A DNA stretch of 63,960 nt, the filler included, from Collodictyon triciliatum (taxonomy: Eukaryota), in NCBI GenBank assembly GCA_043381765.1. It is 8 parts of 8 records of this genome, joined end to end, with 100 filler letters (N's around TTAATTAATTAA, not from the genome) between each part and the next. Parts side by side here need not be neighbours in the genome. Positions count along the whole stretch, not along the records: positions 1 to 8,961 come from JBHJMP010003217.1; positions 9,062 to 18,011 come from JBHJMP010003218.1; positions 18,112 to 33,057 come from JBHJMP010003219.1; positions 33,158 to 42,099 come from JBHJMP010003220.1; positions 42,200 to 51,135 come from JBHJMP010003221.1; 3 more parts are not named here. One strand, 5' to 3'. Of the stretch, positions 984-49,527 are shown in pieces (position 1 is the stretch's first letter; each line of letters starts with the position of its first letter). Both the position numbers and the translations under genes were made by a program. Under the pieces are notes generated by a model. It was given only the letters and a program-made list of their open reading frames with translations. It did not search any database and was not told the origin of the DNA.

Positions 984-1079
984 GGCTGGGTTTTGAGCAA
1001 AAAATTGCGGCAAGGTCTGGGCTTGGTAAAGTATTCAATTTAAATTGAATAGTTTATTTTAATGGTTTGTGTGTCTAGG

Positions 1080-1541
1080 TTAGTCGGTTTCCGTATCGCT
1101 TAAATTTTCAGATTCAGATTCGTAGTCATAGTAGTATATTTTTCGCTTTTCACCAACCGCAACAAAATCTATCAGATAACGCTCGAGAATATACATATAT
1201 GTATTGTCTGGCATCCCTTCACTGTCTGTGTCGTCGCTGTTCATCATAGTATTCAGCGCTTGTGTTATTCTGAAAAAAGAAGCTTGTAAGGATAGAGGGT
1301 CGTGGACACGCTCAACTGCTCTGTAAAAATCTGAGATCGTAAAATTTTGTAAGCCTCTAAATCTGCTAACAAATCCCATCCAGTTCACAATATACAAAGA
1401 TCTTGTATTTCCGAACTCATCTTCTACAAAAGTGATCATAATTTTCAGTCCATCAAAATCAAAATCAAATGTTTGGCGGTTGTTGCTGGTGGAGTTCATT
1501 CCTATTCTTGAAAATTTAAATTTTCTGGAATTTAAACGCAT
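1080..1541 (-). CDS. Hypothetical viral protein (start may be MNSTS at 1499)
   Basis: 153-aa ORF in a gene-dense element, divergent from the HNH gene, with a palindrome at 1032-1051 after its stop. Confidence 0.6.
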   Translation of the reverse strand: MRLNSRKFKFSRIGMNSTSNNRQTFDFDFDGLKIMITFVEDEFGNTRSLYIVNWMGFVSRFRGLQNFTISDFYRAVERVHDPLSLQASFFRITQALNTMMNSDDTDSEGMPDNTYMYILERYLIDFVAVGEKRKIYYYDYESESENLSDTETD

Positions 1542-1596
1542 TTACATTTTTTCGACAAAATCATTTTATAAAAAAAATATTTTTCTGAGAATCAGT

Positions 1597-2091
1597 ATGA
1601 CAGAAGTTGAGGTCTTTGCCCGGGTTTTGGATTTTCCTAATTATATGATTTCAAATTTTGGCCAAGTCCTAAGAAATGGACAAGCCATTAACCCATTTAT
1701 AAATACTCGAGGATATGCTAGTGTTATGTTATCAAATGGCAAAATCCAGAAACCTTGTTTAGTACATCGACTAGTTGCCACTTACTTTGTGGAAAATCCA
1801 AACCCAGAATTTAACATTATCGATCATATAAACGGAAACAAGGCAGACAATCATTATAAAAATATTCGTTGGTGCAATGCCTCAATAAATGCTAGAAATA
1901 GAAAATCAATTTTATCAAACACACAAATCCAAGGAGTACATAAACATAAAAATGGCTCTTTCGAGGTTTCTTATTATGTTGATGTATATCAACGAAAACG
2001 AAAATATTTCAAAGACTTGGACTCTGCCATAAAATACCGTGAGAAGATGGTTGATATTTATTATTCCAGGGTTAAAGCTTCCGAGCCCTAA
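1597..2091 (+). CDS. NUMOD4-HNH homing endonuclease with AP2-like C-terminus
   Basis: NYMISNFGQV (NUMOD4-like), VHRLVA..F..NP, IDHINGNKADNHYKNIRW (HNH), C-terminal IQGV..HKNG..F.....A...R (AP2-like). ATG at 1597 is in frame with track ORF 1432-2091. Confidence 0.88.
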   Translation: MTEVEVFARVLDFPNYMISNFGQVLRNGQAINPFINTRGYASVMLSNGKIQKPCLVHRLVATYFVENPNPEFNIIDHINGNKADNHYKNIRWCNASINARNRKSILSNTQIQGVHKHKNGSFEVSYYVDVYQRKRKYFKDLDSAIKYREKMVDIYYSRVKASEP

Positions 2092-2917
2092 AAACAACTG
2101 CTTTCAATTTGTCTGGGTCCCGCTGTAGGTCTGCAACGTTTTTGAGAACCTTCATCGCACTAGCCTGGAACCCTCCAAGATACGCCCATCTCTCGATTTC
2201 TTTATATGTTCTTGGCCCATACCTTTGCCCACCCTGAACACCATAATAACCACCATTGTTATCTGATGAGATTTTTATTTGATCGATCCCATTTGTGAAA
2301 GAAACCACCTTTCCTGTAGGTGATCCGTTGTTTGCCACCGAGGTAATTTTTTCTGATGAAAACATCGACGTGGGAGTGAAACCCGCCCCGACTTTTTGTT
2401 CTCCCTTGACATAACCTGCCATCGCCCTGTTTTGGGCTTGAAGTTTTCTAATTAAATCTAATCTTTTAATTAGATCCTTTGTCTCTTCGTCTGCGTATTC
2501 AATATATTGTGACCCAATCCGGTCAAATTCGTTAATAAGTTCTTGCTTTGTTTTTGTTCTCCACCCAGGATCGTAATAATATTCAAGACTCTTTAACTCT
2601 TTCGGGGTAAACATCGGGTCATCTTCTTCTTCCCCGGGAGCAGGTTCTTCCCCGGGAGCAGGTTCTTCATATTCTTGTTGTTCTTCTAGTTGGTTCGCAT
2701 AATCTTCATTTCTCTGCATAATGTTTTCGTGTTCACGCAACGCAGCGAGAAAGGCTAGTCTCATTGAATCTTGAAATTCTTCAAGACCAATCTCAAATCC
2801 TTTTAATTGTTGTGGATTTTGAGATTTTGATCGGGCACGAGATGACTTTGGTTGTGAGGATTCTGCTTCAGGTCTGCCTCGGGGGTCTGTTTGTGGTGAA
2901 GTATCTCTTTCTGACAT
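2072..2917 (-). CDS. Hypothetical viral protein, acidic, with EEPAPG x2 repeat
   Basis: 281-aa ORF with AT-rich ATG context; no family recognised. Confidence 0.75.
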   Translation of the reverse strand: MSERDTSPQTDPRGRPEAESSQPKSSRARSKSQNPQQLKGFEIGLEEFQDSMRLAFLAALREHENIMQRNEDYANQLEEQQEYEEPAPGEEPAPGEEEDDPMFTPKELKSLEYYYDPGWRTKTKQELINEFDRIGSQYIEYADEETKDLIKRLDLIRKLQAQNRAMAGYVKGEQKVGAGFTPTSMFSSEKITSVANNGSPTGKVVSFTNGIDQIKISSDNNGGYYGVQGGQRYGPRTYKEIERWAYLGGFQASAMKVLKNVADLQRDPDKLKAVVFRARKL

Positions 2918-2934
2918 ATTATAATAAACATTTT

Positions 2935-3987
2935 TTACCTTAATTTTATATCTATATATAAAGAATCTGATATCATGACACGCATCACGTTATTTGGAAT
3001 TCTTTTTTTCCCGTTGGACATCTCCTCTGGGGTTATTTCTTCTACATTAGACTTCTCCGGAAATAATTCGACTCCTTTAATTTCTGAAAAAACACTTGAT
3101 TTTCTAAATTTTTGCGAGTTCAATCCCTTTTTTATTTCCGGGGTAAATTTTTCTTTTGGAGTTTTGTTATAAAAATCTTCTATATTGTCAATTAATTCAT
3201 ATAATGAGTCGTATTTGTTTGAAAAAGGTGTTATTGCTTTTTCATGTGTAAGGTTAACATCAAGTTGTAAGACATTATTATAAATTTCTTTTTTGACTGA
3301 CATAATGTTATTTTTAATTTCGCCTTCACTTGACTTACCTTGTTTAATTTTATTTGCTATATTTTTTATGTCTTGGTGAATTTTATGAATTTCATTTAAT
3401 TCAATACTTTTGTTTGTTCTCAATTCTTCCAGTTCCAGTTTTTGACCAGGTGTTTTTTTTGGGGTATAAGGCTCCACCCTTTCCTCTTCTGGTTCCGCTT
3501 CAAGTCTCTGCAGCGACGTATCTGATTTTGAAATTGCTTTAAAAAAGTAGTCTTTATGTCTTTCTGTAAAAGAACTTGGCTTTAAAAGTTGTTTCAAATT
3601 CACATAATTTGTACTTGTATATTTACCAGTCAAATATTTTATTCTATCCTGTAGTTCTATCCCTTCAGGTTTCGACATGTTGACGACATACACTTTATTT
3701 GCCCTATCATAATGGTACGCAAAATTTAACTCTGGAGTTTTTATTTCATTTTCAGACTCTACATAAGAATTATACACATAAATTAAAGCATACATCATAT
3801 GTATATAATCCTCGTCAGGATAATAACTTGAAAAATTATCTTTTTCTTTAAGTACATTTTCCCATAAAATATTTCTGTTTTCTTCTGTAAATTCTCCGAT
3901 AGGGTTCTCATTTTTTATAATTTCCCTGGTATGGTGTTTTTTTCTACCAGACATTATTTTTGAAATTAATGCTTGACTCATATACAT
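2935..3987 (-). CDS. Hypothetical viral protein with coiled-coil region
   Basis: Long ORF (track 2935-4020); first ATGs at 3987 and 3981; no family recognised. Confidence 0.75.
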   Translation of the reverse strand: MYMSQALISKIMSGRKKHHTREIIKNENPIGEFTEENRNILWENVLKEKDNFSSYYPDEDYIHMMYALIYVYNSYVESENEIKTPELNFAYHYDRANKVYVVNMSKPEGIELQDRIKYLTGKYTSTNYVNLKQLLKPSSFTERHKDYFFKAISKSDTSLQRLEAEPEEERVEPYTPKKTPGQKLELEELRTNKSIELNEIHKIHQDIKNIANKIKQGKSSEGEIKNNIMSVKKEIYNNVLQLDVNLTHEKAITPFSNKYDSLYELIDNIEDFYNKTPKEKFTPEIKKGLNSQKFRKSSVFSEIKGVELFPEKSNVEEITPEEMSNGKKRIPNNVMRVMISDSLYIDIKLR

Positions 3988-4010
3988 GTAAAAAAAATAT
4001 ATTATAAAGT

Positions 4011-4220
4011 ATGAAATCATTCTTTAAAAAATCGCACTTTAAAAAATCCAAGGTTGAAAAAAAAAAGAAAGAGAAGAAACTCGATTATTCAAAAGAAGTG
4101 GAGCCCTTTGCCTCGACTGTACACCACTTCATCGAACGAAAAATAAAATATAATGAACAACATGGAAACAAAAAACAAAACATCAATAATCCCAAAAAGC
4201 GAATGGCAATCGAAAATTAG
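4011..4220 (+). CDS. Small Lys-rich hypothetical protein overlapping the integrase start
   Basis: 69-aa ORF whose ATG follows a short AT-rich divergent intergenic region. Confidence 0.45.
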   Translation: MKSFFKKSHFKKSKVEKKKKEKKLDYSKEVEPFASTVHHFIERKIKYNEQHGNKKQNINNPKKRMAIEN

Positions 4221-5382
4221 TGAAGTTTTTTATAATGAGCCAAAGCACACAATGTCACGGGACGCCCTTTTTACAGCGGTGCGTCAGTATGGCATTTCTC
4301 GATCATATGTCGATAAATTTATTCGAAGTCAACCAGACTGGCAAATTTTACAACGAGCTCCGAAACCTAAGGATACACCCACGATTATGCGATTTGAACC
4401 GGGATACGTACAGATCGACACAATTGATATCAAAAATATGGAAAGTGATTCAGCCAAGTACTTATTGACATGCGTTGATGTGTTTACACGAAAAATGTGG
4501 GCGTATCCTTTGGAATCTTTGAAAGCCAGCGATGTAGCTGTTCAATTGCAAAAATTCTTAAATTCTTATAAATTAACAAAAACAATTCAGTCAGACAACG
4601 GAAATGAATTTAAAGATCAAGTTTCTACAATACTTGAGAAACAAAAAATAAACCACGTTAAGAGCTTACCGGCTACCCCCACGAGTCAATCATATATCGA
4701 AAGAAATAACGGGACATTAAAGAGGGCTCTTTATGGTTATAAACAGAAAACAGGAAAGGACCCCATACCAGAGCTCGACAGCTTTATTGATTCTTTAAAC
4801 TTACAACCAAATTCTACAACGGGTGTCATCCCAGCTGTTGCCATGCTTCCAGAATATAAAAACAAGATTCTTGAGAATATGGAAAAGTATAACTCAAAGA
4901 AAAATGACCAGGGTAACAGCAAGGATTTAGAACCAGGAGAAAAAGTACGGGTTCGTTTAGAAAAAACGGATATTCCTGCGGATATGAGAAACAAAATCAA
5001 GAAACAAAAAGGGTATCTCCCAAGGTGGTCGTCTGAGGTATATAAGATAAAACAAAGATTTGAAGCAAAGTCAGTTTGGTCCATACCATCTTACACCTTA
5101 GACACCTCGGATAATTTAAAAAACAAGCGTTTTAGAAGGTCTGATTTATTAAAGTTATCAGAAGATACAAAACTTGAGACCCATAAGCCAAAGTCCCAAA
5201 ACATAAGAGAATTTGAAGAGGATGATGAACTTGATGAATATCTCAAAACCAGAGAAAGACGTGAGATGAAAGGAACAAGTGGCTTAGAAGAATCTGACTT
5301 GTATAGATTTAATTCACAAACAAAGGCAAAGCAAGCACATTCTCGTGAAATGCGTTTACTTAACAGAAATAGTAAAAAATAA
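4153..5382 (+). CDS. rve (retroviral-type DDE) integrase, Polinton/Mavirus-like
   Basis: VQIDTID (D), YLLTCVDVFTRK, IQSDNGNEF (D), PTSQSYIERNNGTLK (E), GEKVRV and KGYLPRWS C-terminal motifs. Confidence 0.93.
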   Translation: MNNMETKNKTSIIPKSEWQSKISEVFYNEPKHTMSRDALFTAVRQYGISRSYVDKFIRSQPDWQILQRAPKPKDTPTIMRFEPGYVQIDTIDIKNMESDSAKYLLTCVDVFTRKMWAYPLESLKASDVAVQLQKFLNSYKLTKTIQSDNGNEFKDQVSTILEKQKINHVKSLPATPTSQSYIERNNGTLKRALYGYKQKTGKDPIPELDSFIDSLNLQPNSTTGVIPAVAMLPEYKNKILENMEKYNSKKNDQGNSKDLEPGEKVRVRLEKTDIPADMRNKIKKQKGYLPRWSSEVYKIKQRFEAKSVWSIPSYTLDTSDNLKNKRFRRSDLLKLSEDTKLETHKPKSQNIREFEEDDELDEYLKTRERREMKGTSGLEESDLYRFNSQTKAKQAHSREMRLLNRNSKK

Positions 5383-5868
5383 TTATTGTTTTTTTTCTCT
5401 ATTTTTTCTAAATATTGTTTTTTTTTCTTGGTTTTTTACTTCTTTAAGTTCTTCCGATAGTTTTTCGTTATCGTATTGTACGCTCCTCTCTCTGTTGCTA
5501 TCCCTAGTCTCTGCCGCTTTCTTGCGCCCTTTTTTGAGAATCTCATCAACATCTTTCTTTGTTTTGAAAAACATGACGACATTGTCCTGATTTACGCTCC
5601 ACTGGGTTGCGTACTGTCTAAAGAAAAATACTTTATCTTTATTTCCTTTCCTTCGTAATTGCTCTTCCTCATTTGGAATTCTGTTTATAAAGCCGCCCTT
5701 TCTAAAACCACCTTGTGACTCGGTACCGCTGTTATATGTTCGTGGTTTTGCTATATAAGATATGTAGTCCCCGACCTGTATGTCTTCTGGGGAAATTGGA
5801 TCCCAATCATCGGAGCTAAAGTTTTCTGGGAGAAGTTTCTTGATTGTTTCTGTAATTTCTGGAGCCAT
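5383..5868 (-). CDS. Conserved unknown protein, homolog of 42421-42945
   Basis: GDYISYIAKPRTY...GF...WS aligns by eye with GDYVAYKTKARTW...GF...WS of element B. Confidence 0.85.
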   Translation of the reverse strand: MAPEITETIKKLLPENFSSDDWDPISPEDIQVGDYISYIAKPRTYNSGTESQGGFRKGGFINRIPNEEEQLRRKGNKDKVFFFRQYATQWSVNQDNVVMFFKTKKDVDEILKKGRKKAAETRDSNRERSVQYDNEKLSEELKEVKNQEKKTIFRKNREKKQ

Positions 5869-5880
5869 GTTTATTGCTAG

Positions 5881-5911
5881 AAAAAAAATATTTATAGAAA
5901 ATATTTTTTTT
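5881..5911. terminator. AT-rich hairpin (13-bp stem, 5-nt loop) downstream of the helicase stop
   Basis: AAAAAAAATATTT-ATAGA-AAATATTTTTTTT. A role as 3'-end signal is inferred. Confidence 0.5.
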
Positions 5912-5929
5912 ATTTAAATGTAAATTTAT

Positions 5930-8326
5930 TTAATTTGATTTTTCTGGATAATAATCGTCTATTTTAAATTTTAATCCATTTACTTTATTTCTTATTTCTG
6001 AAATGGATATATGATAAAAAGTTCCCAGCTCATAAATGTCTGTTTCCTCTGAATTTTTTCTTAAACTTGTGTACTCTTTTCTTACAAACAATTCATGATA
6101 TGTTGTTATGTATTCTTTTAATTCTCGACTTTTCACAAAAGATTTAAATGTCATATTTACAAACGCTGGTGCTATAGATTTACAAATTTCTTTATATAAT
6201 TCAAAAAACAACTGAGCTTTAATTATTACTTTCTCTTTTGAATGAAAATTGAAGCCACGTTTTGGATTTAGATATCCGTATTTTTCTTCATAGTAGCTGT
6301 CCCACTCAAATAAAATAATGTCCATGAATTGGAAAAACGTGGGTTTAAACGTTTCCTTAAGATCGTTTTGTGACTCACACATTGGTAAATTGTCGTAATT
6401 GAATTTCGGGTCATACATCTTTAAGATATACAATAATAGCAATTTGTTATAATATTCGTTTCCACTTTCTTCTCTCAATGCTTTTTGCTCTTCCGGGCTC
6501 AATCTATGTTCTTTGCAATCTATCATTGGGAACCTTCTGAAGTTCTCACTCTCAAACTCGAAAGCGCATTGTTTATTAGTAAGGGCCATATATGAAGTAT
6601 AATTTTTAACTGGAAAGGGATCTGTACGCATTAATCTGATTTCTGATCGAGACCTTGTAATCGCCGCTTTTATATTTGAAGTAAATTTCTTTGTGTCCTT
6701 GGTTTCTGACTCTTCGCACAATACAAGAAGCTTGTTATATATCGATGCGTTAAAATCGCCAAAAAGATGCACGGCACAACTCTGTGACGTGAAATAAGTT
6801 TCTCCCAGTAACTTCTCGGCATAATGCTTTTCAAGAAATCCAGTTTTTCCAGAGCCTCCCGTAGCGTTGCGAAGACACAAAGCTTTCTCGCATAATTTGG
6901 GTGTGTCAAAAAGTATATTACCTAGTATATTTATAAAGTACTTTATATTGTACTCTTGTATATTCTTGTCGTTATGGAAACAAAAAATTTCCTCTATTTG
7001 CCATTTGGTTTTTGAGTTGTCCCAGTCTAATTGCTCTTGTTCTGTCAATGGAGTATTTTTCAAGTCTTCAACCAATTTTTTATAAGCCTCGTTAGACATG
7101 AGACCCGGGTGACAAAACAGTGCGGTCCATGGGTGACCCTTAAATGTGTTGTACACGCCTTTTGGCACATTTACGCCATATGGATAAAATCCAAACATGA
7201 CATATTGTCTAATCGGATAACTGCAAATTGTTTGCCAAACCTCGTGGGGCTTATCTGTCAAATTAAATTCCTCGTGAAATTGCATAACGTAGGACTTGGC
7301 GTTTTGAATTTCTTGTGGTCTGTCAAATAATTCGTTTTCACGATACAGCTTTCCGTTCATTGTAAAATGCGTGTGCCAAAAATCAGGCGGTGGCGGTTCT
7401 GTTTTTGGAGGCACATAAGAAAATTCCCAGTCCATTTGCATCTTCTTTTCTGTTAATTTAACTTCATAAGATGTCTTTTCTTTTATAAAAGTTTCACATT
7501 TTCTTAAAAGATGTTCGGGAAATTCAACATCTTCTCCATTTTTTCGAATCATACAACCATCGTGAATTAGCACATCCACACTTCTACCTACTGAGATAAA
7601 AAATTCATTCATTGACTCCAATAGAATGCGTTCCTCATTTTGTAAAAAAAGACTTAGCATCTTAAATTTTTTATTTGGACCAGCCTGTAAAAGTACGTGG
7701 TTATCTCCTCGAAGTCTAATTTTCTGCCATTCTTCTTTTTCCGTCCATATAAATTCGGCAAGTCTTGACCATTCATGTTGAATGTTTGAAAGGTCTTTGT
7801 ATACCTCTTCAATGTCAAAAGATTGGCAATAATTTGGGATTTCAGCAAATTCAGGAGCTTGCCCGCCGTACGCTATTTTTAACAATGCGATCTTGGCGTC
7901 AAATCGATCCATGTTGAACCTCTCCATTATATCAGCAAGTACTGCCTCCCGATTTTCGACATAAAATTTAATGTACTCATGTGGCAAATTACGATTTTTT
8001 GCGTACTGGTACGCGATTGTGTAGTGGCAGTTTACAATGTCGATGTCATGATAGTGTGCTTGACACATTGGAACCCTGATTCTGCTTGTACTCATGCAAC
8101 CCAAGGATTGGGCCCGTGCTGGATATACGCGCCCAACTCTCAGATTTTCAAAACCCTTTGCGAAAGAATACGAGACTTCCAACAAATTCCCTTTTGTTAA
8201 TTTTCGACACATCGCCACAATTGCTTTTTTTTCTTGGGGGGAAATTATTGAATCGTCTTCGGAAAGCAATTGGCTGGAAACATTGACGTCAAAAATTTCA
8301 AATTTTGTGGCAAAAGTGGAGGTCAT
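5930..8326 (-). CDS. TVpol (family A polymerase-like primase) fused to SF3/D5-like helicase
   Basis: GRVY, DIDIVNCH (motif A), AKIALLKIAYGG (motif B), LIHDG (motif C); helicase Walker A GGSGKT, Walker B VLCEE, motif C ALTN. Same architecture as the Sputnik and PLV primase-helicases. Confidence 0.88.
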   Translation of the reverse strand: MTSTFATKFEIFDVNVSSQLLSEDDSIISPQEKKAIVAMCRKLTKGNLLEVSYSFAKGFENLRVGRVYPARAQSLGCMSTSRIRVPMCQAHYHDIDIVNCHYTIAYQYAKNRNLPHEYIKFYVENREAVLADIMERFNMDRFDAKIALLKIAYGGQAPEFAEIPNYCQSFDIEEVYKDLSNIQHEWSRLAEFIWTEKEEWQKIRLRGDNHVLLQAGPNKKFKMLSLFLQNEERILLESMNEFFISVGRSVDVLIHDGCMIRKNGEDVEFPEHLLRKCETFIKEKTSYEVKLTEKKMQMDWEFSYVPPKTEPPPPDFWHTHFTMNGKLYRENELFDRPQEIQNAKSYVMQFHEEFNLTDKPHEVWQTICSYPIRQYVMFGFYPYGVNVPKGVYNTFKGHPWTALFCHPGLMSNEAYKKLVEDLKNTPLTEQEQLDWDNSKTKWQIEEIFCFHNDKNIQEYNIKYFINILGNILFDTPKLCEKALCLRNATGGSGKTGFLEKHYAEKLLGETYFTSQSCAVHLFGDFNASIYNKLLVLCEESETKDTKKFTSNIKAAITRSRSEIRLMRTDPFPVKNYTSYMALTNKQCAFEFESENFRRFPMIDCKEHRLSPEEQKALREESGNEYYNKLLLLYILKMYDPKFNYDNLPMCESQNDLKETFKPTFFQFMDIILFEWDSYYEEKYGYLNPKRGFNFHSKEKVIIKAQLFFELYKEICKSIAPAFVNMTFKSFVKSRELKEYITTYHELFVRKEYTSLRKNSEETDIYELGTFYHISISEIRNKVNGLKFKIDDYYPEKSN

Positions 8327-8402
8327 CCTGAATTATCCAATATTTTTATCTTTAAGTTCAAACGAACGCGCGTTTTTTTTGCAAAAATACTTTACAAAAA
8401 AT

Positions 8403-8576: not shown

Positions 8577-8596
8577 AATTTTATATAGATAATAAT

Positions 8597-9200: not shown

Positions 9201-9205
9201 GTAGG

Positions 9206-14092: not shown

Positions 14093-14093
<1 letters not shown>

Positions 14094-14124
<31 letters not shown>
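14094..14124. repeat. (GT)n microsatellite
   Basis: Direct reading. Confidence 0.95.
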
Positions 14125-42099: not shown

Positions 42100-42199
42100 N
42101 NNNNNNNNNNNNNNNNNNNNNNNNNNNNNNNNNNNNNNNNNNNTTAATTAATTAANNNNNNNNNNNNNNNNNNNNNNNNNNNNNNNNNNNNNNNNNNNN

Positions 42200-42225
42200 T
42201 TTATGTTAATCATGATTAACATAAA
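42200..42225. repeat. Perfect 26-bp palindrome at contig edge
   Basis: TTTATGTTAATCA|TGATTAACATAAA. Confidence 0.93.
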
Positions 42226-42420
42226 TTCACGACAGCCGCTTGGTATTTTTAATAAATAGCAATATGAATTTCCTATTTTAGGAAATATGGTAATTGCTAT
42301 TTTCCAGTTTTAGGAAATATTCATTGCTATATGAAAATTCAAAAATTCAATATTTTAATTCAAGTTGTAATTCAGGCTTAAAGATTTCTCGCTAATATAA
42401 ATTAATATCCCTACAACAAT

Positions 42421-42945
42421 ATGGCCGACGTAATTAAACCTAAACCTGAACGCAAGCAGCTTACTATGGAAGAAATTGAAAGAGACTATGAACCAACTAC
42501 CCTTACTGCTTTAAAAAAAGGAGACTACGTTGCATACAAAACAAAAGCTCGAACTTGGAAAAGTAAATCCGGGGATGAAGTAGAATATGCTTCAAAAATT
42601 AATCAAGGTTTTGTATCTATGCTTCCAGACCCAGACAAACAACAAGGCTTTCGTTCCACTGGTCTCATCTACGGATTCAAAGGAGCGAAGGGGGGTGCCT
42701 GGAGTCAGAATGAACGATTTGTTGAAAAAGTATGGAAAGTAAAAGATGAAGTATTTAAAAACCGAAAGAAAGCAAATGCTGAGAAAGCGTATAAAAAGAA
42801 AACAGAAAATTATAATAAACGCAAAAGTGACGAAGCAGAAGAATTTAAAAGTAATAAAAAGGCTGCTCAAGAAATTGAAGCTGACCCAGAGCTTTTAGAA
42901 CTCGCAAAGAAAGCTCGTAGGTTTAGACAAAAACAAACAGAATAA
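42421..42945 (+). CDS. Conserved unknown protein, homolog of 5383-5868
   Basis: GDYVAYKTKARTW...NQGFVS...GAWSQN, basic helical tail; convergent with the integrase. Confidence 0.85.
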   Translation: MADVIKPKPERKQLTMEEIERDYEPTTLTALKKGDYVAYKTKARTWKSKSGDEVEYASKINQGFVSMLPDPDKQQGFRSTGLIYGFKGAKGGAWSQNERFVEKVWKVKDEVFKNRKKANAEKAYKKKTENYNKRKSDEAEEFKSNKKAAQEIEADPELLELAKKARRFRQKQTE

Positions 42946-42971
42946 ATTTTTTATAAAATAAAAAATTTATT
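42941..42971. terminator. AT-rich hairpin (14-bp stem, 3-nt loop) between convergent stops
   Basis: AATAAATTTTTTAT-AAA-ATAAAAAATTTATT. Confidence 0.55.
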
Positions 42972-44933
42972 TTTTACTTTCTCTGCGTTTTTTATCTCTT
43001 TCACGTTCTCTTGCCAATTCTTTTTCTTTTTGTGATAGTGACATACTAGCTCTACGCATAGCTTGAGCTTCGGCGTTCTTTTTTTTAAATGCTTCTTCAC
43101 CCATAGCCTCCCTTTGTTTTTTTTCCTTTCAGCTCTAGCTACTGAAGCAGCTGTGGGTTGCTTTTTACTTGGTGGTATAGGTGTAGCACTTTCAGCTTGG
43201 ACTTCTGCTCTTTCAAGAATTCTTTTTTGTGCTTCTTTAATAAGGTCTTGTGCCTCATTGTATTCTCTCATAAGTTTTCTAAACTCAACTTCTGTTATAT
43301 CTTTTGTTTTTATTGGTTTAGGTATTTTACTTTTCTCTGCTATAATCTGTTCGTCAGATATAACAGCATAACCAGGTGGCAATGCTTCAAGGAGTTTATA
43401 CCCTGGTGGATTTTTTAAACCACCCTTTGCATCTACCTTGGCTTTGATTTGTGCATAGATTCTATTAACATCACTTGTCAATTCTGCAATATTCACACCC
43501 GCTTCTTCTCTTCGCCTCTCTATTTCCATTTGTTCTTTTCTTTTATCTTCATTTTCTTTTAATAAACGTTTTGTATCAGATATAGATCTTTTCAAAGGTA
43601 TTTTCTTTTTGCGCTCAACTTCTACAGACTTGGCTCTTTCTCTTAATTTTTCTTTAGTTTTATCTATTTGCGCTATAGTAGGTGGCTCAACAGCATCATC
43701 ATCATCATCAATAGCGGGTGGCTCTGGTGTATTGGGTGGAGCTTTTGTTTGTTTTGTTTTTAATATTTCTGGTTGGTCATCACCACCATCCTTTGCTTCT
43801 GTAAATGATACAGCCACTGGTTTATTTAAACTCTCTGCTGGAACTTTTAATAAATTTCCTCTCAGGAATCTTTTTGAATTTAACTTTGATTCTGGGATTC
43901 GTGCATTGTATCCCAAATCAGCAGCTCTGCTTAATTCTGCATTCACTTCTTTGATTTTATATTTCATAGCACGATATGGCAATTTTGAATTATACACTTT
44001 ATCAACTTTATATACGATAGGTCCCCACTTTGGCATAAAGCCTTTTTTTTCACTTATTTTCTTTCTTAATTCATTTGGAAGATTTAAACTCTCCATCGCA
44101 ATTCTTACAAAATCTCCTACATTTAATTTATCCCTTTTTTGTTTTTTAGCAATCTCATCTAGTCTTCCTATGTCTGCATCTAAAATCTTGTCAAAGTTTT
44201 CAGGAACCAATGCAACATTTGGAGCGACTCCAGTAGTTCTATTAATTTTATCATTTAAACCATCTACAATTTTTTGTAAATTATTTCTTCTAAAAGGACT
44301 CTTACCTGTTTCCATATAGTGTTTACCTAAAGCCCTTTTCAAATCTCCATTTGCTCGCTCGACAAACGCCTGAGACGTAGGTGTGTGTGGAGTTGAATAA
44401 ACCACTTTTTTTATTCTTAGTGTGTCTCTTGACCAAGAAGATAAAACCCTTTTTTTTTTACCATTTTCTGTTATTGGTGTTGTTAAAAATTTAAATTCAT
44501 TATCACATTGAATTACGGATAATCCTGGATATCTACCTTTAATTGATATTAGTGCATTTTGAACACTCTCAAGTTGTTTATTAATAATTTCTTCAGCAAA
44601 TAATTTTCTTGTTGCAGGTACTAAACCTACTAAAACATAATCATATTTAATTCGCTGATTATCTTCATTAAATTTTTTTGTATCTATTAAATCTATTTGC
44701 ATATAACCAGCATCTTCAATATTGAAGGCTGTTGTCTCTGTAGCTTTTGTTTTGGGTTGAGTTCGTTGATATGTTGTATTTGTTGATATAACTTTTTTTA
44801 TAAAACTCTTTGGTATGGTTGGAGGATTCATTTGAAAATATTGATATAAGGCATTTATACTTTTTTCAGGTCCACTTTCAAACTGACTTTGTATTCTATC
44901 TGTTCTTTGCTTATCACGTTCCTGTTTATTCAT
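42951..44933 (-). CDS. rve DDE integrase with long charged C-terminal extension (probable frameshift near the 3' end; corrected stop 42967)
   Basis: MQIDLID, IQCDNEF, PTSQAFVERANGDLK, GDFVRI, KGFMPKW; homologous to 4153-5382. Confidence 0.9.
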   Translation of the reverse strand: MNKQERDKQRTDRIQSQFESGPEKSINALYQYFQMNPPTIPKSFIKKVISTNTTYQRTQPKTKATETTAFNIEDAGYMQIDLIDTKKFNEDNQRIKYDYVLVGLVPATRKLFAEEIINKQLESVQNALISIKGRYPGLSVIQCDNEFKFLTTPITENGKKKRVLSSWSRDTLRIKKVVYSTPHTPTSQAFVERANGDLKRALGKHYMETGKSPFRRNNLQKIVDGLNDKINRTTGVAPNVALVPENFDKILDADIGRLDEIAKKQKRDKLNVGDFVRIAMESLNLPNELRKKISEKKGFMPKWGPIVYKVDKVYNSKLPYRAMKYKIKEVNAELSRAADLGYNARIPESKLNSKRFLRGNLLKVPAESLNKPVAVSFTEAKDGGDDQPEILKTKQTKAPPNTPEPPAIDDDDDAVEPPTIAQIDKTKEKLRERAKSVEVERKKKIPLKRSISDTKRLLKENEDKRKEQMEIERRREEAGVNIAELTSDVNRIYAQIKAKVDAKGGLKNPPGYKLLEALPPGYAVISDEQIIAEKSKIPKPIKTKDITEVEFRKLMREYNEAQDLIKEAQKRILERAEVQAESATPIPPSKKQPTAASVARAERKKNKGRLWVKKHLKKRTPKLKLCVELVCHYHKKKKNWQENVKEIKNAEKVKNKFFIL

Positions 44934-45018
44934 ATTTATATTAACATAAACTTTTTTATAAATAAACGTAACTTAAAGATAAATTGAAATTGTATTTTAT
45001 ATATAATTTCAATTAAAA

Positions 45019-45207
45019 ATGCCGCATCAATTCACAGCTGAAGAAATACAACAATTTAATTATTATTGCCTAGTAGAATGGGAGCTACCACTCGAAATCG
45101 TTCGCGACCTTGTCCGGTCTGCTATTAAACTCAAAAAACGCAATCGCAAAAGTTACATTGAAAGAAAACAAAAAAGAATATCACCTACGGAATCACCAAC
45201 AAAATAA
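45019..45207 (+). CDS. Small hypothetical protein (62 aa)
   Basis: Fills the integrase-helicase gap; AT-rich ATG context. Confidence 0.55.
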   Translation: MPHQFTAEEIQQFNYYCLVEWELPLEIVRDLVRSAIKLKKRNRKSYIERKQKRISPTESPTK

Positions 45208-45232
45208 ATAAACTGAGATTTATCATTGAAGT

Positions 45233-47593
45233 TTATTCAGTTAAAAATTCTTTTTCAATCAAGTATTTCTTGACCCATTGCTCAGTCAATTCGTATTTAC
45301 GAGATGGGTTTTGAATTATCCCTATCTTGTGAAGCTCTCTGCCAAATTTATGTAAGGTCAATATTCCTTCAGATTGTCGACCAGCGTCTGTCATAACATT
45401 GCGGAACAGTGAATATAGTTGCATTGGTACCATTGCTGATTTGAATGCTTGTTTATATATGCTACCTTCATCATCTTCATATATCACTAATAAGAATTGG
45501 TCAACTTGATTAATTTGTAACATCATTTGAGCTTTCCATATTTGTTTTGTATGCTGTTCTTCAATAATATATTTTTCACTATTCCAAGTATCATCATATA
45601 TCCATCTTAAATATTGAACAAATTTTAATAATTGATTTTTATCACTGATTGTTTCATTTAATTCAATAGCCATACTTTGAGGCATTAATTGTTCTCGACA
45701 TTGTATAACACAATATCGTCGATTAGACTTTGTAACAGTAAAAACAGATTCATTGTTTGTATTACACACCACGTGAACGTAATTATTTATTACATATTGA
45801 TTTGCACATTTTTTATTTATTGTAATATCTGAAGCTACTAAATTATCTTTCATTACATCCGCAAATTTTACACCACCAGCTCTATTACCTTCTTCTATAA
45901 CAACGTAACACTTATTCTCCAATAAGCCATTAAAATCGCCGAATAGCTCACCCATTTTCGATGACTTCACTCCATAATTTTTACCTATGATATTGTCTAA
46001 AAACATTGTATGTAAAATAGTAGATTTACCGACACCCTCTGTGTGACTGTAAAAAACAAGACAAGTGTGAAATCTACCCATCTCGTGAGCTGCAAATAGT
46101 AAGTGAGCAAACCATTGTAATACATATGCATAAGCACCCGAATCCTCATCACATAATTGAGTCCAAATAGTTTTGAGTATTATACTATCTCGGCAATATT
46201 TATCTGCTTCATCATCAGTCATTGGTATATACATATCCCCGTATTTTTGTATATCAAACCCGCGGAAAATGTTATAAGTATTAGGATAAACCGCAGGGTT
46301 TAAGTCCATAGGTAAATCAGGTCTAAATACTATTTGTTCGACTACTCTTTTGTGCTTATCACGATAATACAATGGTAAAAAACTTACCCAATCACCTGTA
46401 TCAATCCAACCATAATGTGCATTTGCATTCTTAGCTGCTTGATGTTTATATACGTGAAGTGTATGGTCTTTTTTTATAAGTGTTAAATCACCATAATATA
46501 AAAAGTGATTTCTGTCAAATTCGTCTTTTATATATTTGTAATATAATTTAGTTTGTTCATTTTCTAAATCGTGCAATAATATAACTTTGTCTCCGTTAGT
46601 TAGTTTTTTTTCTATAGTTTTTGTTAAATAACTAACCCCAAGTGATTTTTGAGATTCATCTTGTAAGCTACTTTCAACACTTTTTATAACAGATTCAAGA
46701 ACATCAATTTTTTGTTGAGTAGTGCTTCCTTTTTTATCTTCCATTTGATTACAGATTCTTATCCAATACTTTGATAGATTCAATATACCAATATTAACTA
46801 AAACATATGCAATTTTTATCCAACTATCATAATCTGAATCGATTAATTTAAAATATTCCCGTTTTAAACAACACTCTATATAAGCATTCACATATACTTT
46901 CGTATCATAGTCATATGTAGAAATCCAATCAACTTTATATATCGATTCAATTAATTTAGTTTCTTCCCATTCAATATCTTCATTTTTCTCATTATCTGCA
47001 TCTGATTCTTTGCGTTTTTTTCCGGGATACTTATCAATAAATCCACTTTTAATAAAATCAAAGTCTTGCAGCTCATTGTATATATCTTTTGTTTCACTTT
47101 CCCACATATTTCTTTTACTGTGTATGACATCGATATCTGGCATATCTTTACCAAACACTTTCACCCCTTCCCATTTTTCATCCCAGTTTTTTGGCTTATT
47201 CACATAAATATGAAACCCCTTTGTATTGCCTTTTGTCCAGCAAATATTATTATTAATTTCTGGGATAGAAAGAATTTTTCCAAGCTCGTCGGGAGTATGA
47301 ATATTCGGGTCGTCACAGTCGATACAAACAATATTTGAATATTTTAAAAAAATAGAAAAACATCGAACACAATTTTTATGTTCGGATGCTGTTAACTTTC
47401 TATCTCCTAGTGCCTTTACATATTTTTGCTTTGCTAAATTTTTACTAGCCTGCCTCCATTCAGGCAAATCTTCAAGTTTAACATTGTTTTTTTCTAGAAT
47501 TGTTAGTTTTTTACCTTCGTGCATCAGATAATGAGCATAGGCAAAAGGTACTTTGTTAATGATAAGAAATTCTCCGATATTCATATTATTCAT
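45233..47593 (-). CDS. AEP/Prim-Pol primase + PriCT-2-like + SF3 helicase
   Basis: CIDCDD (DxD), TKGFHIY (AEP motif II), DYDSWIKIAYVL (PriCT-2-like), Walker A EGVGKST, Walker B VVIEE, motif C CNTN. Confidence 0.88.
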   Translation of the reverse strand: MNNMNIGEFLIINKVPFAYAHYLMHEGKKLTILEKNNVKLEDLPEWRQASKNLAKQKYVKALGDRKLTASEHKNCVRCFSIFLKYSNIVCIDCDDPNIHTPDELGKILSIPEINNNICWTKGNTKGFHIYVNKPKNWDEKWEGVKVFGKDMPDIDVIHSKRNMWESETKDIYNELQDFDFIKSGFIDKYPGKKRKESDADNEKNEDIEWEETKLIESIYKVDWISTYDYDTKVYVNAYIECCLKREYFKLIDSDYDSWIKIAYVLVNIGILNLSKYWIRICNQMEDKKGSTTQQKIDVLESVIKSVESSLQDESQKSLGVSYLTKTIEKKLTNGDKVILLHDLENEQTKLYYKYIKDEFDRNHFLYYGDLTLIKKDHTLHVYKHQAAKNANAHYGWIDTGDWVSFLPLYYRDKHKRVVEQIVFRPDLPMDLNPAVYPNTYNIFRGFDIQKYGDMYIPMTDDEADKYCRDSIILKTIWTQLCDEDSGAYAYVLQWFAHLLFAAHEMGRFHTCLVFYSHTEGVGKSTILHTMFLDNIIGKNYGVKSSKMGELFGDFNGLLENKCYVVIEEGNRAGGVKFADVMKDNLVASDITINKKCANQYVINNYVHVVCNTNNESVFTVTKSNRRYCVIQCREQLMPQSMAIELNETISDKNQLLKFVQYLRWIYDDTWNSEKYIIEEQHTKQIWKAQMMLQINQVDQFLLVIYEDDEGSIYKQAFKSAMVPMQLYSLFRNVMTDAGRQSEGILTLHKFGRELHKIGIIQNPSRKYELTEQWVKKYLIEKEFLTE

Positions 47594-47657
47594 TGGGTTT
47601 TAATATTTTTATATAAACGATTGTTTTTAAGCCTGTAATTAAAGCTGTATTTTACAT

Positions 47658-47841
47658 CTTATGTAGGAATTGTAGGATTTGTACCTTTTTTTCAACTCCT
47701 TTTTATATAAAAAAGCCCAATTGCTATTGCTATTTCTAATAAAATTGCTAGCAATATTTTTAGCAATTAGCAGTGAAATTTTATATTTTTTTATAAAATG
47801 GAGTTAAAAAAAAGGTACAAATCCTACAATTCCTACATAAG
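47658..47841. promoter_or_regulatory. 42-bp inverted repeat (1 mismatch) with TGTAGGA iterons; putative origin
   Basis: Arms at 47658-47699 and 47800-47841; more TG(T/C)AGGA units at ~47899-47925; directly upstream of the primase-helicase gene. Confidence 0.6.
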
Positions 47842-48169
47842 TTATCAAAAAGAGTAAGGCTTAAGACTGAAAATAAAAAAAAACTTTTTTACAAAGTATG
47901 TAGGATTTGCAGGATATGCAGGATTTTTAAAAAAAAGTTATTCAAAGTCCAGTATAATAGGTACCGTACTTTTTACAATATGGTATGAATTTTTTTTTCC
48001 ACATTTGTCTTTCCGCTTTCGTCGAGAATTCAGACTTTCGAACCAATCGATCACCTCTTTCCACGTCTCAAAATTGAACACGTCACCGTTTTCACTATAG
48101 ACCCTCAACATACTAGATTCAACAAAAAAAAAACAGAGAAGACGCGAGTTTAGGTGGGGGTGGGTAGCT

Positions 48170-48607
48170 TTATTTTTTCAGCTTGGCGATCTTCAACGCG
48201 AGAATATGCTCGTATCCCGACCTGTTGTCCGAGAGAATTGTTTCCTTCTCTTCTAACTCGGCTTTGTTTTTGTTCAGAGCCTCTTCTGCTTTCTTCAATG
48301 CGTCCAGTAAGGCTGGCTGGTCTTCCTTTAATTTTTTGACGCGGGTCTCGATCTCCACTATGGAAGTGTGCATTTGTTTCAAAATATTATCTTGCTCAAG
48401 TACCTTTGCAACTAGAGCAGGAGGGTGAGCCACTTTCCATCCACTAGCTGCAGCAGAAGAATTGGGGCGTTTGCGTGGAGTGGCTGTAGTCTTGCGTGGA
48501 GTAGAGGCCTTCGACATAACGGAGGCGCTGTCTGACGAAGTGTCGGTGACAATGCCCATTGGGATGGTGAGCTGGCCTGCTGGCACTTCTTGTGTTTCTT
48601 TCGACAT
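48170..48607 (-). CDS. Hypothetical coiled-coil protein
   Basis: 145-aa ORF with Ser/Thr/Pro-rich N-terminus and heptad-like C-terminus; GC-richer than neighbours. Confidence 0.7.
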   Translation of the reverse strand: MSKETQEVPAGQLTIPMGIVTDTSSDSASVMSKASTPRKTTATPRKRPNSSAAASGWKVAHPPALVAKVLEQDNILKQMHTSIVEIETRVKKLKEDQPALLDALKKAEEALNKNKAELEEKETILSDNRSGYEHILALKIAKLKK

Positions 48608-48800
48608 TCTTCGGTGATGGGGTGGTTCCTAGGGGGGTTTTGTTAGTTGGAGTGCTGAGCTGGCGTCCGTCGGGCTGTGAAGAAAGCTTGGTTTGCAACA
48701 AAAAATTGAATTTGCTGGAAATTTATAGCCTTGACCACAACAAAATTTATTTTAGTAAAAAATTAAAATAAATTTATAAAATTTTTTTCTATTTTAGGAG

Positions 48801-49521: not shown

Positions 49522-49527
49522 AATATA

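What the first reader, a model, noticed from the sequence alone, without database searches (positions are those of the whole stretch)
1028..48775. Mimivirus-style hairpins after stop codons in both elements: giant-virus-dependent transcription?
Seen: AT-rich stems just 3' of genes at 5881-5911 (13-bp stem, 5-nt loop, after helicase), 42941-42971 (14 bp, 3-nt loop, between convergent genes), 48743-48775 (12-bp core, after ATPase), 1032-1051 (20-bp palindrome, after ORF 1080) and ~8375-8401 (stem with G-U pairs on the minus strand, after the 57-aa ORF). Known: Mimivirus and its virophage Sputnik polyadenylate at such hairpins. Inference: these elements use a Mimiviridae-type transcription factory, i.e. 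a virophage lifestyle. AT-richness raises the chance rate, and not every gene has a hairpin.
Basis: partly seen in the sequence, partly recalled or inferred. Interest (0 to 1): 0.8.

Follow-up and report, generated by a model that had tools for sequence, protein, structure and literature searches.

The report
AT-rich hairpins ending virus-like genes
Two small virus-like DNA elements carry short A/T-only hairpin sequences right after some of their genes, the kind of gene-end signal that giant viruses and their parasites use, but nothing here shows which machinery reads them.

Summary
The hairpins are real. All five sit at the stated coordinates. Four are above chance as palindromes; the one at 8375-8401 is not, and 48743-48775 is not by folding energy either. 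In element 1, a 93.5%-identical intact relative of element 2 (L001) and a distant relative (L003), 6 of 11 near-perfect palindromes lie within -10..+70 nt of a stop codon. That zone is 5-7% of the sequence; composition-preserving shuffles give 0.77, and 0 of 100 reach 6. At convergent gene pairs one palindrome embeds both stop codons, and this is kept at an orthologous junction in L003 although the inner stem sequence differs. The rule is only partial: 7 of 21 junctions holding a 3' end, against 1 of 8 divergent junctions.

The window is a concatenation of contigs joined by N44-TTAATTAATTAA-N44 linkers. The two "elements" are therefore separate, truncated ~8.9 kb contigs. They belong to a metagenome-only polinton-like/virophage-like family with an rve integrase, a D5-like primase-helicase, an A32-type ATPase and a penton-like protein.

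Transcript 3'-end hairpins are the best reading. Giant-virus dependence is plausible but untested. The signal is not specific to Mimiviridae, known giant-virus promoter motifs are not enriched, AATAAA overlaps many stop codons (a host poly(A) rival), and no RNA data were found.

The parts
1..8961 (.). Element 1: one separate contig, cut at its right end inside the ATPase gene
   Evidence: Linker N44-TTAATTAATTAA-N44 starts at 8962. Genes.
1027..1056 (-). Palindrome (perfect core 1032-1051) 28 nt after the stop of ORF 1080-1541
   Evidence: RNA fold z -4.95, 0 of 200 shuffles fold as well.
1080..1541 (-). 153-aa ORF, no family found
1597..2091 (+). HNH/NUMOD4 homing-type endonuclease. It overlaps the convergent ORF 2072-2917 by 20 nt. 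No hairpin at this junction.
   Evidence: Pfam HNH_3 6e-8; phrog_59 3e-25; junction p=0.99
4153..5382 (+). rve-type integrase of element 1. It abuts the convergent ORF 5383-5868. Only a weak bulged hairpin at this junction.
   Evidence: Pfam rve 1.5e-10; fold z -1.64 / -0.07; junction p=0.58
5881..5911 (-). Perfect 13-bp A/T hairpin with a 5-nt loop, 19 nt after the helicase stop and upstream of ORF 5383-5868
   Evidence: 0 of 300 shuffles; z -3.36
5930..8326 (-). D5-like primase-helicase (DUF5906) of element 1
   Evidence: Pfam 2.7e-15. 23 metagenome-only relatives, the best 88% identical.
8375..8401 (-). Weak hairpin (11 bp with one G-U) 1 nt after the stop of the conserved 57-aa ORF 8403-8576. 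Not above chance.
   Evidence: z -0.90, 39 of 200; p=0.36. The ORF is conserved in all four elements.
8597..8961 (+). N-terminal part of the A32-type packaging ATPase of element 1, cut by the contig end
   Evidence: 36% identity to the element-2 ATPase
42200..51135 (.). Element 2: one separate contig. It aligns at 93.5% identity, from 42328 on, with metagenome contig L001, which runs 6.4 kb further.
42421..42945 (+). 174-aa ORF (homolog of element-1 ORF 5383-5868), convergent with the integrase
42941..42971 (.). Perfect 14-bp A/T hairpin with a 3-nt loop. It embeds the stop of the 174-aa ORF (42943-42945) and, in intact copies, the integrase stop (equivalent of 42967-42969). It forms on both RNA strands.
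42951..44933 (-). rve-family integrase of element 2. In the window its last ~55 codons are frameshifted: all four metagenome runs and L001 have one more T behind 43116.
45207..45237 (.). Weaker hairpin (8-bp outer stem, 15-nt loop) between the convergent 62-aa ORF 45019-45207 and the helicase. Its arms are AATAAACT / AGTTTATT.
   Evidence: Fold z -1.66 / -1.99; junction p=0.05
45233..47593 (-). D5-like primase-helicase of element 2
   Evidence: Pfam DUF5906 2.9e-13; 8 relatives
48743..48775 (-). Perfect 12-bp A/T hairpin with a 9-nt loop, 25 nt after the ATPase stop
   Evidence: 33/33 identical to L001 inside flanks that are about 80% identical. 0 of 300 shuffles as a palindrome, but energy z only -0.32.
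48801..49521 (-). A32-type packaging ATPase of element 2, frameshifted in the window near 49154-49155. It is intact (240 aa) in L001 and, by the inserted TT, in all four runs laid.
   Evidence: Pox_A32 1.5e-9
49901..50704 (+). 267-aa penton-like protein (looks like DUF5901 viral proteins)
   Evidence: ESM Atlas features score 0.98, TM 0.79-0.83 to clusters of Nucleocytoviricota and Preplasmiviricota. My own AlphaFold model was useless, pLDDT 35.
50724..51135 (+). N-terminal part of a 737-aa spike/fibre-like protein, cut by the contig end
   Evidence: The full protein in L001 has a C-terminal domain matching phage capsid spike and tailspike domains: Z 10.5, rmsd 2.2, 94 residues aligned. An N-terminal motif repeats in many proteins.

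Best explanation
The short, purely A/T palindromes just after stop codons are transcript 3'-end signals of two distantly related polinton-like/virophage-like elements. The RNA folds into a hairpin at the end of a transcription unit, and that hairpin marks where the transcript is terminated or cut and polyadenylated. Between convergent genes, one palindrome spans the whole spacer, embeds both stop codons and serves both strands.

Shown here: the hairpins exist, are enriched near stops, are depleted in coding sequence, one is conserved against diverged flanks, and one is kept at an orthologous junction with a changed inner stem.

Inferred: they act at the RNA level. The elements encode no RNA polymerase, poly(A) polymerase or RNase III, so outside machinery must read them. 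The most likely reader is the RNase III plus poly(A) polymerase system of a co-infecting giant virus, as for Sputnik and transpovirons. Which virus family cannot be told.
For: - Perfect stems of 12 bp or more number 2 and 3 in the two element contigs. Shuffles give 0.03-0.075, and 0 of 200 reach the observed count in each of three schemes. The 32.8 kb of non-element pieces 9062-42099 hold none of 10 bp or more.
- In E1+L001+L003, 6 of 11 near-perfect palindromes lie in the -10..+70 zone of stops, which is 5-7% of the sequence. Shuffles give 0.77, and 0 of 100 reach 6. Coding sequence holds 1 against 3.24 expected.
- All 4 non-overlapping convergent junctions of the element-2 family have a palindrome from stop to stop with p<=0.05.
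- L001 4597-4628 and L003 4450-4484 lie at the same junction in elements whose helicases are 38% identical. They keep the outer stem and pair through different inner sequences.
- Hairpin 48743-48775 is 33/33 identical to L001 while its flanks are 108/136 and 16/20 identical.
- Bacterial-type GC-stem plus T-tail terminators are not enriched: 8 against 5.7 +/- 2.5, and 10 against 11.0 +/- 3.7.
- The elements have an A32-type ATPase, a penton-like protein, an rve integrase and a D5-like helicase. They have no transcription or poly(A) genes in 19 window ORFs and 20 relatives' ORFs scanned.
Against: - Only 7 of 21 junctions that hold a 3' end have a palindrome at p<=0.05, against 1 of 8 divergent junctions. 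That contrast alone is not significant.
- With fixed 63-nt windows, 3' ends (n=29, mean z -0.61) differ from coding windows (n=79) at p=0.042 only, and not from 5' windows (n=28, p=0.23). Those windows cut two of the hairpins.
- Four palindromes lie in other non-coding DNA. One of them (44982-45014) sits in a divergent promoter region, so not every palindrome is a 3' signal.
- The distant relative L003 has few: 2 of 11.
- AATAAA lies within -6..+60 of 14 of 30 stops, against 9% of background windows. It overlaps 7 of 13 stops in L001.
- No Mimivirus or CroV promoter motif is enriched.
Confidence: 0.55

Rival explanations
1. Host nuclear processing. The genes are transcribed by host RNA polymerase II and cut after canonical AAUAAA signals. 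Some palindromes are by-products of two AATAAA signals placed back to back between convergent genes.
For: AATAAA occurs within -6..+60 of 14 of 30 stops, against 293 of 3210 background windows and 8 of 30 upstream windows. In L001, 7 of 13 stop codons sit inside AATAAA, against a background P(AATAAA|TAA) of 0.067, binomial p 1e-5. The arms of 42941-42971 and 45207-45237 begin with AATAAA / TTTATT. The window copy of element 2 has two private frameshifts, as a decaying integrated copy might.
Against: AATAAA at the stop is absent from element 1 (0 of 8) and from L003 (0 of 9). Back-to-back AATAAA explains 6 bp, not perfect 13-14-bp stems. The L001/L003 hairpin at 4597/4450 has no AATAAA at the stops. 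No host flank or integration junction is seen on either contig.
Confidence: 0.2
2. The elements are phage-like contigs of AT-rich bacteria that were co-assembled with the eukaryote, and the hairpins are intrinsic (often bidirectional) terminators.
For: The contigs are separate from the eukaryotic pieces. There is a phage-type HNH endonuclease. The spike C-terminal domain matches phage capsid spike and tailspike domains at Z about 10. The Atlas neighbours of the 737-aa protein are labelled Uroviricota. 655-689 in element 1 has an A-run, a GC stem and a T-run.
Against: Terminator-like sites with GC stems and T tails are not enriched and do not sit at gene ends. Sigma-70-like sites: 52 against 51.8 in L001, but 48 against 32.6 +/- 7.4 in element 1. 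The 3' hairpins are pure A/T. The ATPase hits Pox_A32. The penton-like protein's neighbours are mainly Nucleocytoviricota and Preplasmiviricota. No PHROG family matches any structural gene. tblastn with the 737-aa protein and the ATPase found no match in 50,697 phage records.
Confidence: 0.1
3. The palindromes act on DNA, not RNA, as cruciform or binding sites for the integrase, the primase-helicase or packaging.
For: The elements have other, larger palindromes that are clearly not gene-end signals: 118-159 (42 nt, perfect), 47645-47854 (105-nt arms, 78%) just upstream of the helicase, 42200-42225 at the contig end, and 44982-45014 in a divergent promoter region. [quoted passage not shown]
Against: The short A/T hairpins sit within 1-28 nt of stops or embed them. 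They share no sequence motif that a protein could recognise. The junction hairpin in L001/L003 keeps pairing, not sequence.
Confidence: 0.1
4. Chance products of A/T-rich, low-complexity intergenic DNA.
For: 8375-8401 and, by energy, 48743-48775 do not beat dinucleotide shuffles. An unrelated AT-rich piece has a 16-bp stem at 54933-54975 and a T15/A25 run at 55157.
Against: Shuffles that keep local dinucleotide content in 30-60-nt blocks never reach the observed counts of stems of 12 bp or more or the 3'-zone count. One hairpin is conserved against diverged flanks.
Confidence: 0.05

Closest known systems
Mimivirus/Megavirus 'hairpin rule' and its copies in Sputnik-type virophages and transpovirons
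   Same: Hairpin-forming palindromes follow stop codons. They are A/T-rich, not conserved in sequence, and shared by convergent genes. The carrier is a small element without its own transcription machinery.
   Different: Here they are seen at about a third of 3' junctions, against 16 Sputnik genes reported with hairpins (PMC6723459). No Mimivirus early motif is enriched. No poly(A) mapping exists. The stop codons lie inside the stem at the convergent junctions.
Partial hairpin rule of Marseilleviridae (Noumeavirus, Melbournevirus) and Pithovirus
   Same: Palindromes are enriched between ORFs and tied to upstream stop codons, used at many but not all genes, and linked to a viral RNase III (PMC5413956, PMC4402537, passages).
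   Different: Those are the giant viruses themselves. The case shows that the signal here cannot be assigned to Mimiviridae.
Polinton-like viruses and virophages (Preplasmiviricota), for example mavirus and the ~23 kb PLVs found with Chrysochromulina parva viruses
   Same: A relative's contig of 16.4 kb sets the minimum size. A32-type ATPase, penton-like protein, rve integrase, D5-like primase-helicase. Freshwater occurrence.
   Different: No double-jelly-roll major capsid gene and no cysteine protease were found in the held sequence. There are no relatives in IMG/VR. The family is known only from unnamed metagenome proteins.
Bacterial bidirectional intrinsic terminators
   Same: A single palindrome between convergent genes, flanked by A and T runs.
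   Different: The stems here are pure A/T. GC-stem plus T-tail sites are not enriched.

Membership tests
Giant-virus-type 'hairpin rule' 3'-end signals | Hairpin-forming palindromes enriched just downstream of stop codons and depleted in coding sequence | tested here: met
   6 of 11 palindromes lie in the 3' zone (5-7% of the sequence) against 0.77 expected, 0 of 100 shuffles. Coding sequence holds 1 against 3.24.
Giant-virus-type 'hairpin rule' 3'-end signals | [quoted passage not shown] | tested here: not met
   7 of 21 junctions with a 3' end at p<=0.05. If genes are grouped into inferred transcription units, 5 of 7 units in L001 end at one; that grouping is my inference.
Giant-virus-type 'hairpin rule' 3'-end signals | Structure conserved, sequence not | tested here: met
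   One orthologous junction: L001 4597-4628 against L003 4450-4484. This is a single case.
Giant-virus-type 'hairpin rule' 3'-end signals | Polyadenylation occurs inside the hairpin, after a cut by a viral RNase III | not testable with these tools
   No RNA holder was listed for element 2. Only metagenome contigs could be laid.
Virophage dependent on a Mimiviridae helper | Helper promoter motif upstream of the genes (Mimivirus early AAAATTGA or late motif; CroV late TCTA) | tested here: not met
   AAAATTGA: 13 found against 14.7 expected. TCTA lies within 45 nt upstream of 8 of 30 genes and is not among the enriched 4-mers. The degenerate Mimivirus late motif was not tested.
Virophage / polinton-like virus (Preplasmiviricota) | A32/FtsK-type packaging ATPase | tested here: met
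   Pox_A32 1.5e-9 and 7.4e-9. 13 of the 14 relatives listed carry PF04665.
Virophage / polinton-like virus (Preplasmiviricota) | Penton (minor capsid) protein | tested here: inconclusive
   ESM Atlas score 0.98, TM about 0.8 to DUF5901-type viral clusters. My own model failed. That DUF5901 proteins are pentons is my recollection, not a call.
Virophage / polinton-like virus (Preplasmiviricota) | Double-jelly-roll major capsid protein | tested here: inconclusive
   Not found among the ORFs held. The 737-aa protein next to the penton-like gene is spike-like. 1.1 kb of the relative's contig and the rest of element 1 were not available.
Virophage (Maveriviricetes) | Cysteine protease | tested here: inconclusive
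   No Pfam hit in any ORF, but the elements are incomplete.
Bacterial intrinsic terminators | GC-rich stem followed by a T run, enriched at gene ends | tested here: not met
   8 against 5.7 +/- 2.5 (E1) and 10 against 11.0 +/- 3.7 (L001), and not at gene ends.
Canonical eukaryotic poly(A) signal | AAUAAA shortly before the transcript end | tested here: inconclusive
   Enriched near stops overall (14 of 30 against 9% background) and in L001 (7 of 13 overlap the stop), but 0 of 8 in E1 and 0 of 9 in L003 overlap the stop. Transcript ends are unknown.

The most novel reading that the evidence does not exclude
These contigs represent an undescribed freshwater family of virophage-like elements with a complete regulatory grammar. 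That grammar has a promoter-like motif at a fixed 15 nt before the start codon of the structural genes, and A/T hairpins that embed the stop codons of convergent genes. It would be written for the transcription and RNase III/poly(A) machinery of a still unidentified giant virus. The grammar could then be used to find that helper in the same metagenomes.
Probability: 0.3. Interest if true: 0.6.

Novelty: new member of a known kind. Interest (0 to 1): 0.45.

Why it matters
Regulatory signals shared between a small virus-like element and a giant virus are one of the few sequence-only clues to who depends on whom. If these hairpins and the fixed-distance upstream motif match those of a giant virus in the same freshwater samples, an uncultured parasite could be paired with its helper. 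The stop-in-stem design at convergent genes also shows how tightly such genomes pack their punctuation. As it stands, the finding extends a known principle to a new, unnamed element family. It shows neither dependence on a giant virus nor the identity of one.

Tried and rejected
- RNA evidence: no RNA holder was listed for element 2. Only metagenome contigs could be laid, so transcript ends could not be seen.
- Relatives in IMG/VR: three scans found none, with the E1 helicase, alignment A2 and alignment A3.
- The 'phages' collection gave no match for the 737-aa protein or the ATPase.
- The first metagenome scan attempt failed because alignment A1 had no conserved stretch. It was repeated without the E1 sequence.
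- Relatives of element 1 exist (23 proteins), but their contigs could not be fetched. Conservation of 5881-5911 and 1027-1056 is therefore untested.
- A Sputnik record, wanted as a positive control for my palindrome scan, is not in the collections.
- Byrne et al. 2009 is not held. The exact stem criteria of the original hairpin rule are therefore not quoted.
- PDB sequence searches of the 1188-aa, 267-aa and 361-aa proteins gave nothing useful. The ATPase profile hit only the P-loop and weakly STIV B204.
- The AlphaFold model of the 267-aa protein had pLDDT 35 and was not searched. The model of the 737-aa protein had pLDDT 50, with only the domains 410-515 and 620-737 confident.
- Rfam: 0 matches in the window.
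- Giant-virus markers in the window: none among the 20 ORFs of non-element pieces scanned and the 4 non-element ORFs. The hits were TEA domain, peptidase M19, WD40, pentapeptide and Ephrin_rec_like.
- Literature search for 3' hairpins in polinton-like viruses: none of the 12 papers listed holds the term polinton-like. This does not show that nothing is in print.


Full report
WHAT THE WINDOW IS

The window is not one locus. Seven N44-TTAATTAATTAA-N44 six-frame-stop linkers join eight pieces:
- 1-8961
- 9062-18011
- 18112-33057 (with a 312-N gap)
- 33158-42099
- 42200-51135
- 51236-55031
- 55132-60258
- 60359-63960

They are separate contigs of about 8.9 kb, and both are cut at an end inside a gene. 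The other pieces look eukaryotic. They hold WD40 with about 30 Ephrin_rec_like repeats, a TEA-domain exon and a peptidase M19 exon. No giant-virus gene was seen in them. No whole genome is held.

WHAT THE ELEMENTS ARE

Element 1 encodes:
- a 153-aa ORF
- an HNH/NUMOD4 endonuclease
- two unknown ORFs of 281 and 361 aa
- an rve integrase
- a 161-aa ORF
- a D5-like primase-helicase (DUF5906)
- a 57-aa ORF
- the start of an ATPase

Element 2 encodes homologs of four of these at 26-36% identity: integrase, its small neighbour, helicase and ATPase.

A metagenome contig, L001, is 93.5% identical to element 2 over 42328-51135 and runs 6.4 kb further. In L001:
- The ATPase is intact and hits Pox_A32 at 1.5e-9.
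- The 267-aa protein resembles DUF5901-type proteins of Nucleocytoviricota and Preplasmiviricota (Atlas score 0.98, TM about 0.8).
- The 737-aa protein is spike-like. Its C-terminal domain matches phage capsid spike and tailspike domains at Z 10.5, rmsd 2.2, 94 residues.
- An 1188-aa protein is coiled-coil plus proline-rich.

No double-jelly-roll capsid gene or protease was found in what is held. The helicase and ATPase families contain only unnamed metagenome proteins. IMG/VR and the phage collection hold no relatives.

Near-identical pieces of element 2 occur in freshwater metagenome runs of at least 9 studies.

I read the elements as members of an undescribed polinton-like/virophage-like family. 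There is a residual chance of about 0.1 that they are phage-like contaminants.

THE HAIRPINS

Counts of perfect stems of 10 bp or more with loops of 12 nt or less:
- 4 in element 1: 118-159, 1032-1051, 2447-2474, 5881-5911
- 3 in element 2: 42200-42225, 42941-42971, 48743-48775
- 0 in the 32.8 kb of pieces 9062-42099
- 1 in 51236-55031
- one T15/A25 run in 55132-60258

For stems of 12 bp or more, the observed 2 and 3 compare with 0.03-0.075 in global, 60-nt-block and 30-nt-block dinucleotide shuffles. 0 of 200 shuffles reach the observed count in each scheme.

Position. I allowed one mismatch (score 9 or more) and used E1, L001 and L003. I left out E2 as a near-duplicate of L001, and L002 as a part-duplicate of L003. 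The 11 palindromes fall as follows:
- 6 within -10..+70 nt of a stop. That zone is 5-7% of the sequence. Block shuffles give 0.77, and 0 of 100 reach 6.
- 1 in coding sequence, against 3.24 expected.
- 4 in other non-coding DNA, against 1.03 expected; 3 of 100 shuffles reach 4.

Junction by junction, with 300 shuffles each, a palindrome at p<=0.05 is found at:
- 4 of 8 convergent junctions (all 4 where the genes do not overlap, all in the element-2 family)
- 3 of 13 tandem junctions
- 1 of 8 divergent junctions

So 7 of 21 junctions with a 3' end have one. The contrast with divergent junctions is in the right direction but is not significant by itself.

A cruder test used fixed 63-nt windows:
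- 3' windows: mean z -0.61, n=29
- coding windows: mean z 0.02, n=79, p=0.042
- 5' windows: no difference, n=28, p=0.23

Part of the reason is that tandem 5' windows contain the upstream gene's hairpin, and the window cut two hairpins.

RNA folding supports four hairpins:
- 5881-5911: z -3.4
- 1027-1056: z -4.95
- 42941-42971: z -4.9 and -3.95 on the two strands
- L001 4597-4628 (z -3.1 / -2.6) and L003 4450-4484 (z -2.0 / -4.5)

It does not support 48743-48775 (z -0.3) or 8375-8401 (z -0.9). The last also fails the palindrome test (p=0.36), so I count it as chance.

DESIGN AND CONSERVATION

At convergent pairs the palindrome fills the spacer and both stop codons lie in the stem. This holds for:
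- 42941-42971. In intact copies the integrase stop is the equivalent of 42967-42969. The window copy lacks a T behind 43116 that all four runs and L001 have.
- L001 4597-4628.
- L003 4450-4484.

The last two lie at the same junction, between the coiled-coil and spike genes, in elements whose helicases are 38% identical. They keep the outer stem TAAACAA/TTGTTTA and pair through different inner sequences. This is one case of structure kept without sequence.

Hairpin 48743-48775 is 33/33 identical between the window and L001. Its intergenic flanks are 108/136 and 16/20 identical.

If neighbouring same-strand genes are taken as units, which is my inference, 5 of 7 units in L001 end at a strong palindrome. 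One more ends at a weak one, and one ends at the large palindrome before the helicase.

WHAT READS THEM

The elements have no polymerase, poly(A) polymerase or RNase III.

Bacterial-type terminators are not enriched: 8 against 5.7 +/- 2.5, and 10 against 11.0 +/- 3.7.

The literature I read as passages shows four things:
- In Mimivirus and Megavirus, mRNAs are polyadenylated at palindromic hairpins cut by an RNase III-like enzyme (PMC4402537).
- Virophage and transpoviron genes are flanked by a helper-like terminator hairpin and late promoter (PMC7031253).
- Marseilleviridae (PMC5413956) and Pithovirus (PMC4402537) obey the same rule, at least in part.

The hairpins therefore fit a giant-virus reader, but they cannot name Mimiviridae.

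Against a known helper:
- AAAATTGA is at chance: 13 found against 14.7 expected.
- TCTA is not enriched upstream of genes (8 of 30).
- What is enriched within 45 nt of start codons is ATATAA/TATATA-like sequence.
- In the structural module there is a motif at a fixed distance. TTTCT[GT]G starts exactly 15 nt before the ATG of 4 genes in L003, out of 14 occurrences on both strands. By eye, similar words (TTTCTGCG, TTTCTTTG) stand at -15 in L001 and element 2. The promoter spacers 49867-49900 and 50705-50723 are 34/34 and 19/19 identical to L001, next to coding sequence that is 85-94% identical.

A fixed, very short leader is virus-like. Its owner is unknown.

THE MAIN RIVAL

AATAAA lies within -6..+60 of 14 of 30 stops. 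That compares with 293 of 3210 background windows and 8 of 30 upstream windows. In L001 the stop codon sits inside AATAAA in 7 of 13 genes, against a background of 0.067, p about 1e-5. Host-type poly(A) signals could thus do the job in element 2, and two of them back to back give 6 bp of any convergent stem.

But this context is absent from element 1 (0 of 8) and from L003 (0 of 9). It also cannot make 13-14-bp perfect stems.

VERDICT

- Observation: partly confirmed. Four of the five hairpins are above chance and the 3' enrichment is real, but it is not one locus and the rule is partial.
- Interpretation: partly supported. 3'-end hairpins of virophage-like elements are the best reading (0.55). 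Giant-virus dependence is plausible, perhaps 0.4 overall. A Mimiviridae helper in particular is unsupported.
- Novelty: a new member of a known kind.

No transcript data could be obtained, so the decisive step remains 3'-end mapping.

Noticed in passing
window 8962-9061, 18012-18111, 33058-33157, 42100-42199, 51136-51235, 55032-55131, 60259-60358: Seven artificial linkers (N44-TTAATTAATTAA-N44) show that the window is a concatenation of separate contigs. Features on different pieces, such as ORF 9206-11272 and element 1, are not neighbours in any genome.
   Followed up: yes
window 49154-49155 and 43116: The window copy of element 2 has two private frame-breaking differences. All four metagenome runs laid, and L001, have TT inserted behind 49155 (ATPase) and a T behind 43116 (integrase C-terminus). 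Either the copy is decaying or these are assembly errors.
   Followed up: partly
window 1-1079: The left kilobase of element 1 has no ORF and is packed with repeats. These include a perfect 42-nt palindrome (118-159), several AGAGGGT boxes in both orientations (for example 420-437 against 541-558, and the GC-stem hairpin 655-689), and four ~15-nt tandem repeats at 894-982. It looks like an origin or terminal control region.
   Followed up: partly
window 47645-47854: A 210-nt imperfect palindrome (105-nt arms, 78% complementary) with repeated TGTAGGA-like words lies just upstream of the element-2 primase-helicase. A third copy of the arm is at 47884-47928. It is a candidate replication origin.
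   Followed up: partly
window 42200-42225: The element-2 contig begins with a perfect 26-nt palindrome. L001 and the three long contigs that reach this end (X1, X4, X5) stop within about 215 nt of it, and none extends further left. This is a hint of a genome terminus or terminal repeat.
   Followed up: partly
L001 stops; window equivalents such as 42941-42946, 45203-45208: In the element-2 lineage, 7 of 13 stop codons sit inside AATAAA (background 6.7% of TAA triplets). This is not so in element 1 or L003.
   Followed up: yes
L003 406, 6911, 7691, 7696; window 49867-49900: A promoter-like word TTTCT[GT]G starts exactly 15 nt before the ATG of four structural-module genes in L003. Similar words stand at -15 in L001 and element 2. 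The divergent spacer 49867-49900 is 34/34 identical to L001.
   Followed up: partly
window 48170-48607: The 145-aa ORF is hypervariable. It is 65.8% identical to L001 at the nucleotide level where neighbours are 85-99%. In three of the four runs, 48244-48506 is replaced by about 267 diverged letters.
   Followed up: no
window 44982-45014: A 33-nt palindrome (stem about 10 bp) lies in the divergent region between the integrase and the 62-aa ORF, so it is not a gene-end signal. It may be an operator of a two-way promoter.
   Followed up: no
window 8403-8576 and 47938-48111; L003 8813-8986: A 57-62-aa ORF between the ATPase and the helicase is conserved in all four elements (30-43% identity to the element-1 copy), so it is a real small gene of unknown function.
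   Followed up: partly
window 54933-54975: A 16-bp perfect stem with an 11-nt loop lies near the end of an AT-rich, ORF-poor piece that is not part of either element.
   Followed up: no
window 12501-13220: An ORF on a non-element piece carries a TEA/ATTS DNA-binding domain (5.6e-19). Together with the WD40/Ephrin_rec_like giant ORF at 34048-42099, it marks the rest of the window as eukaryotic.
   Followed up: no
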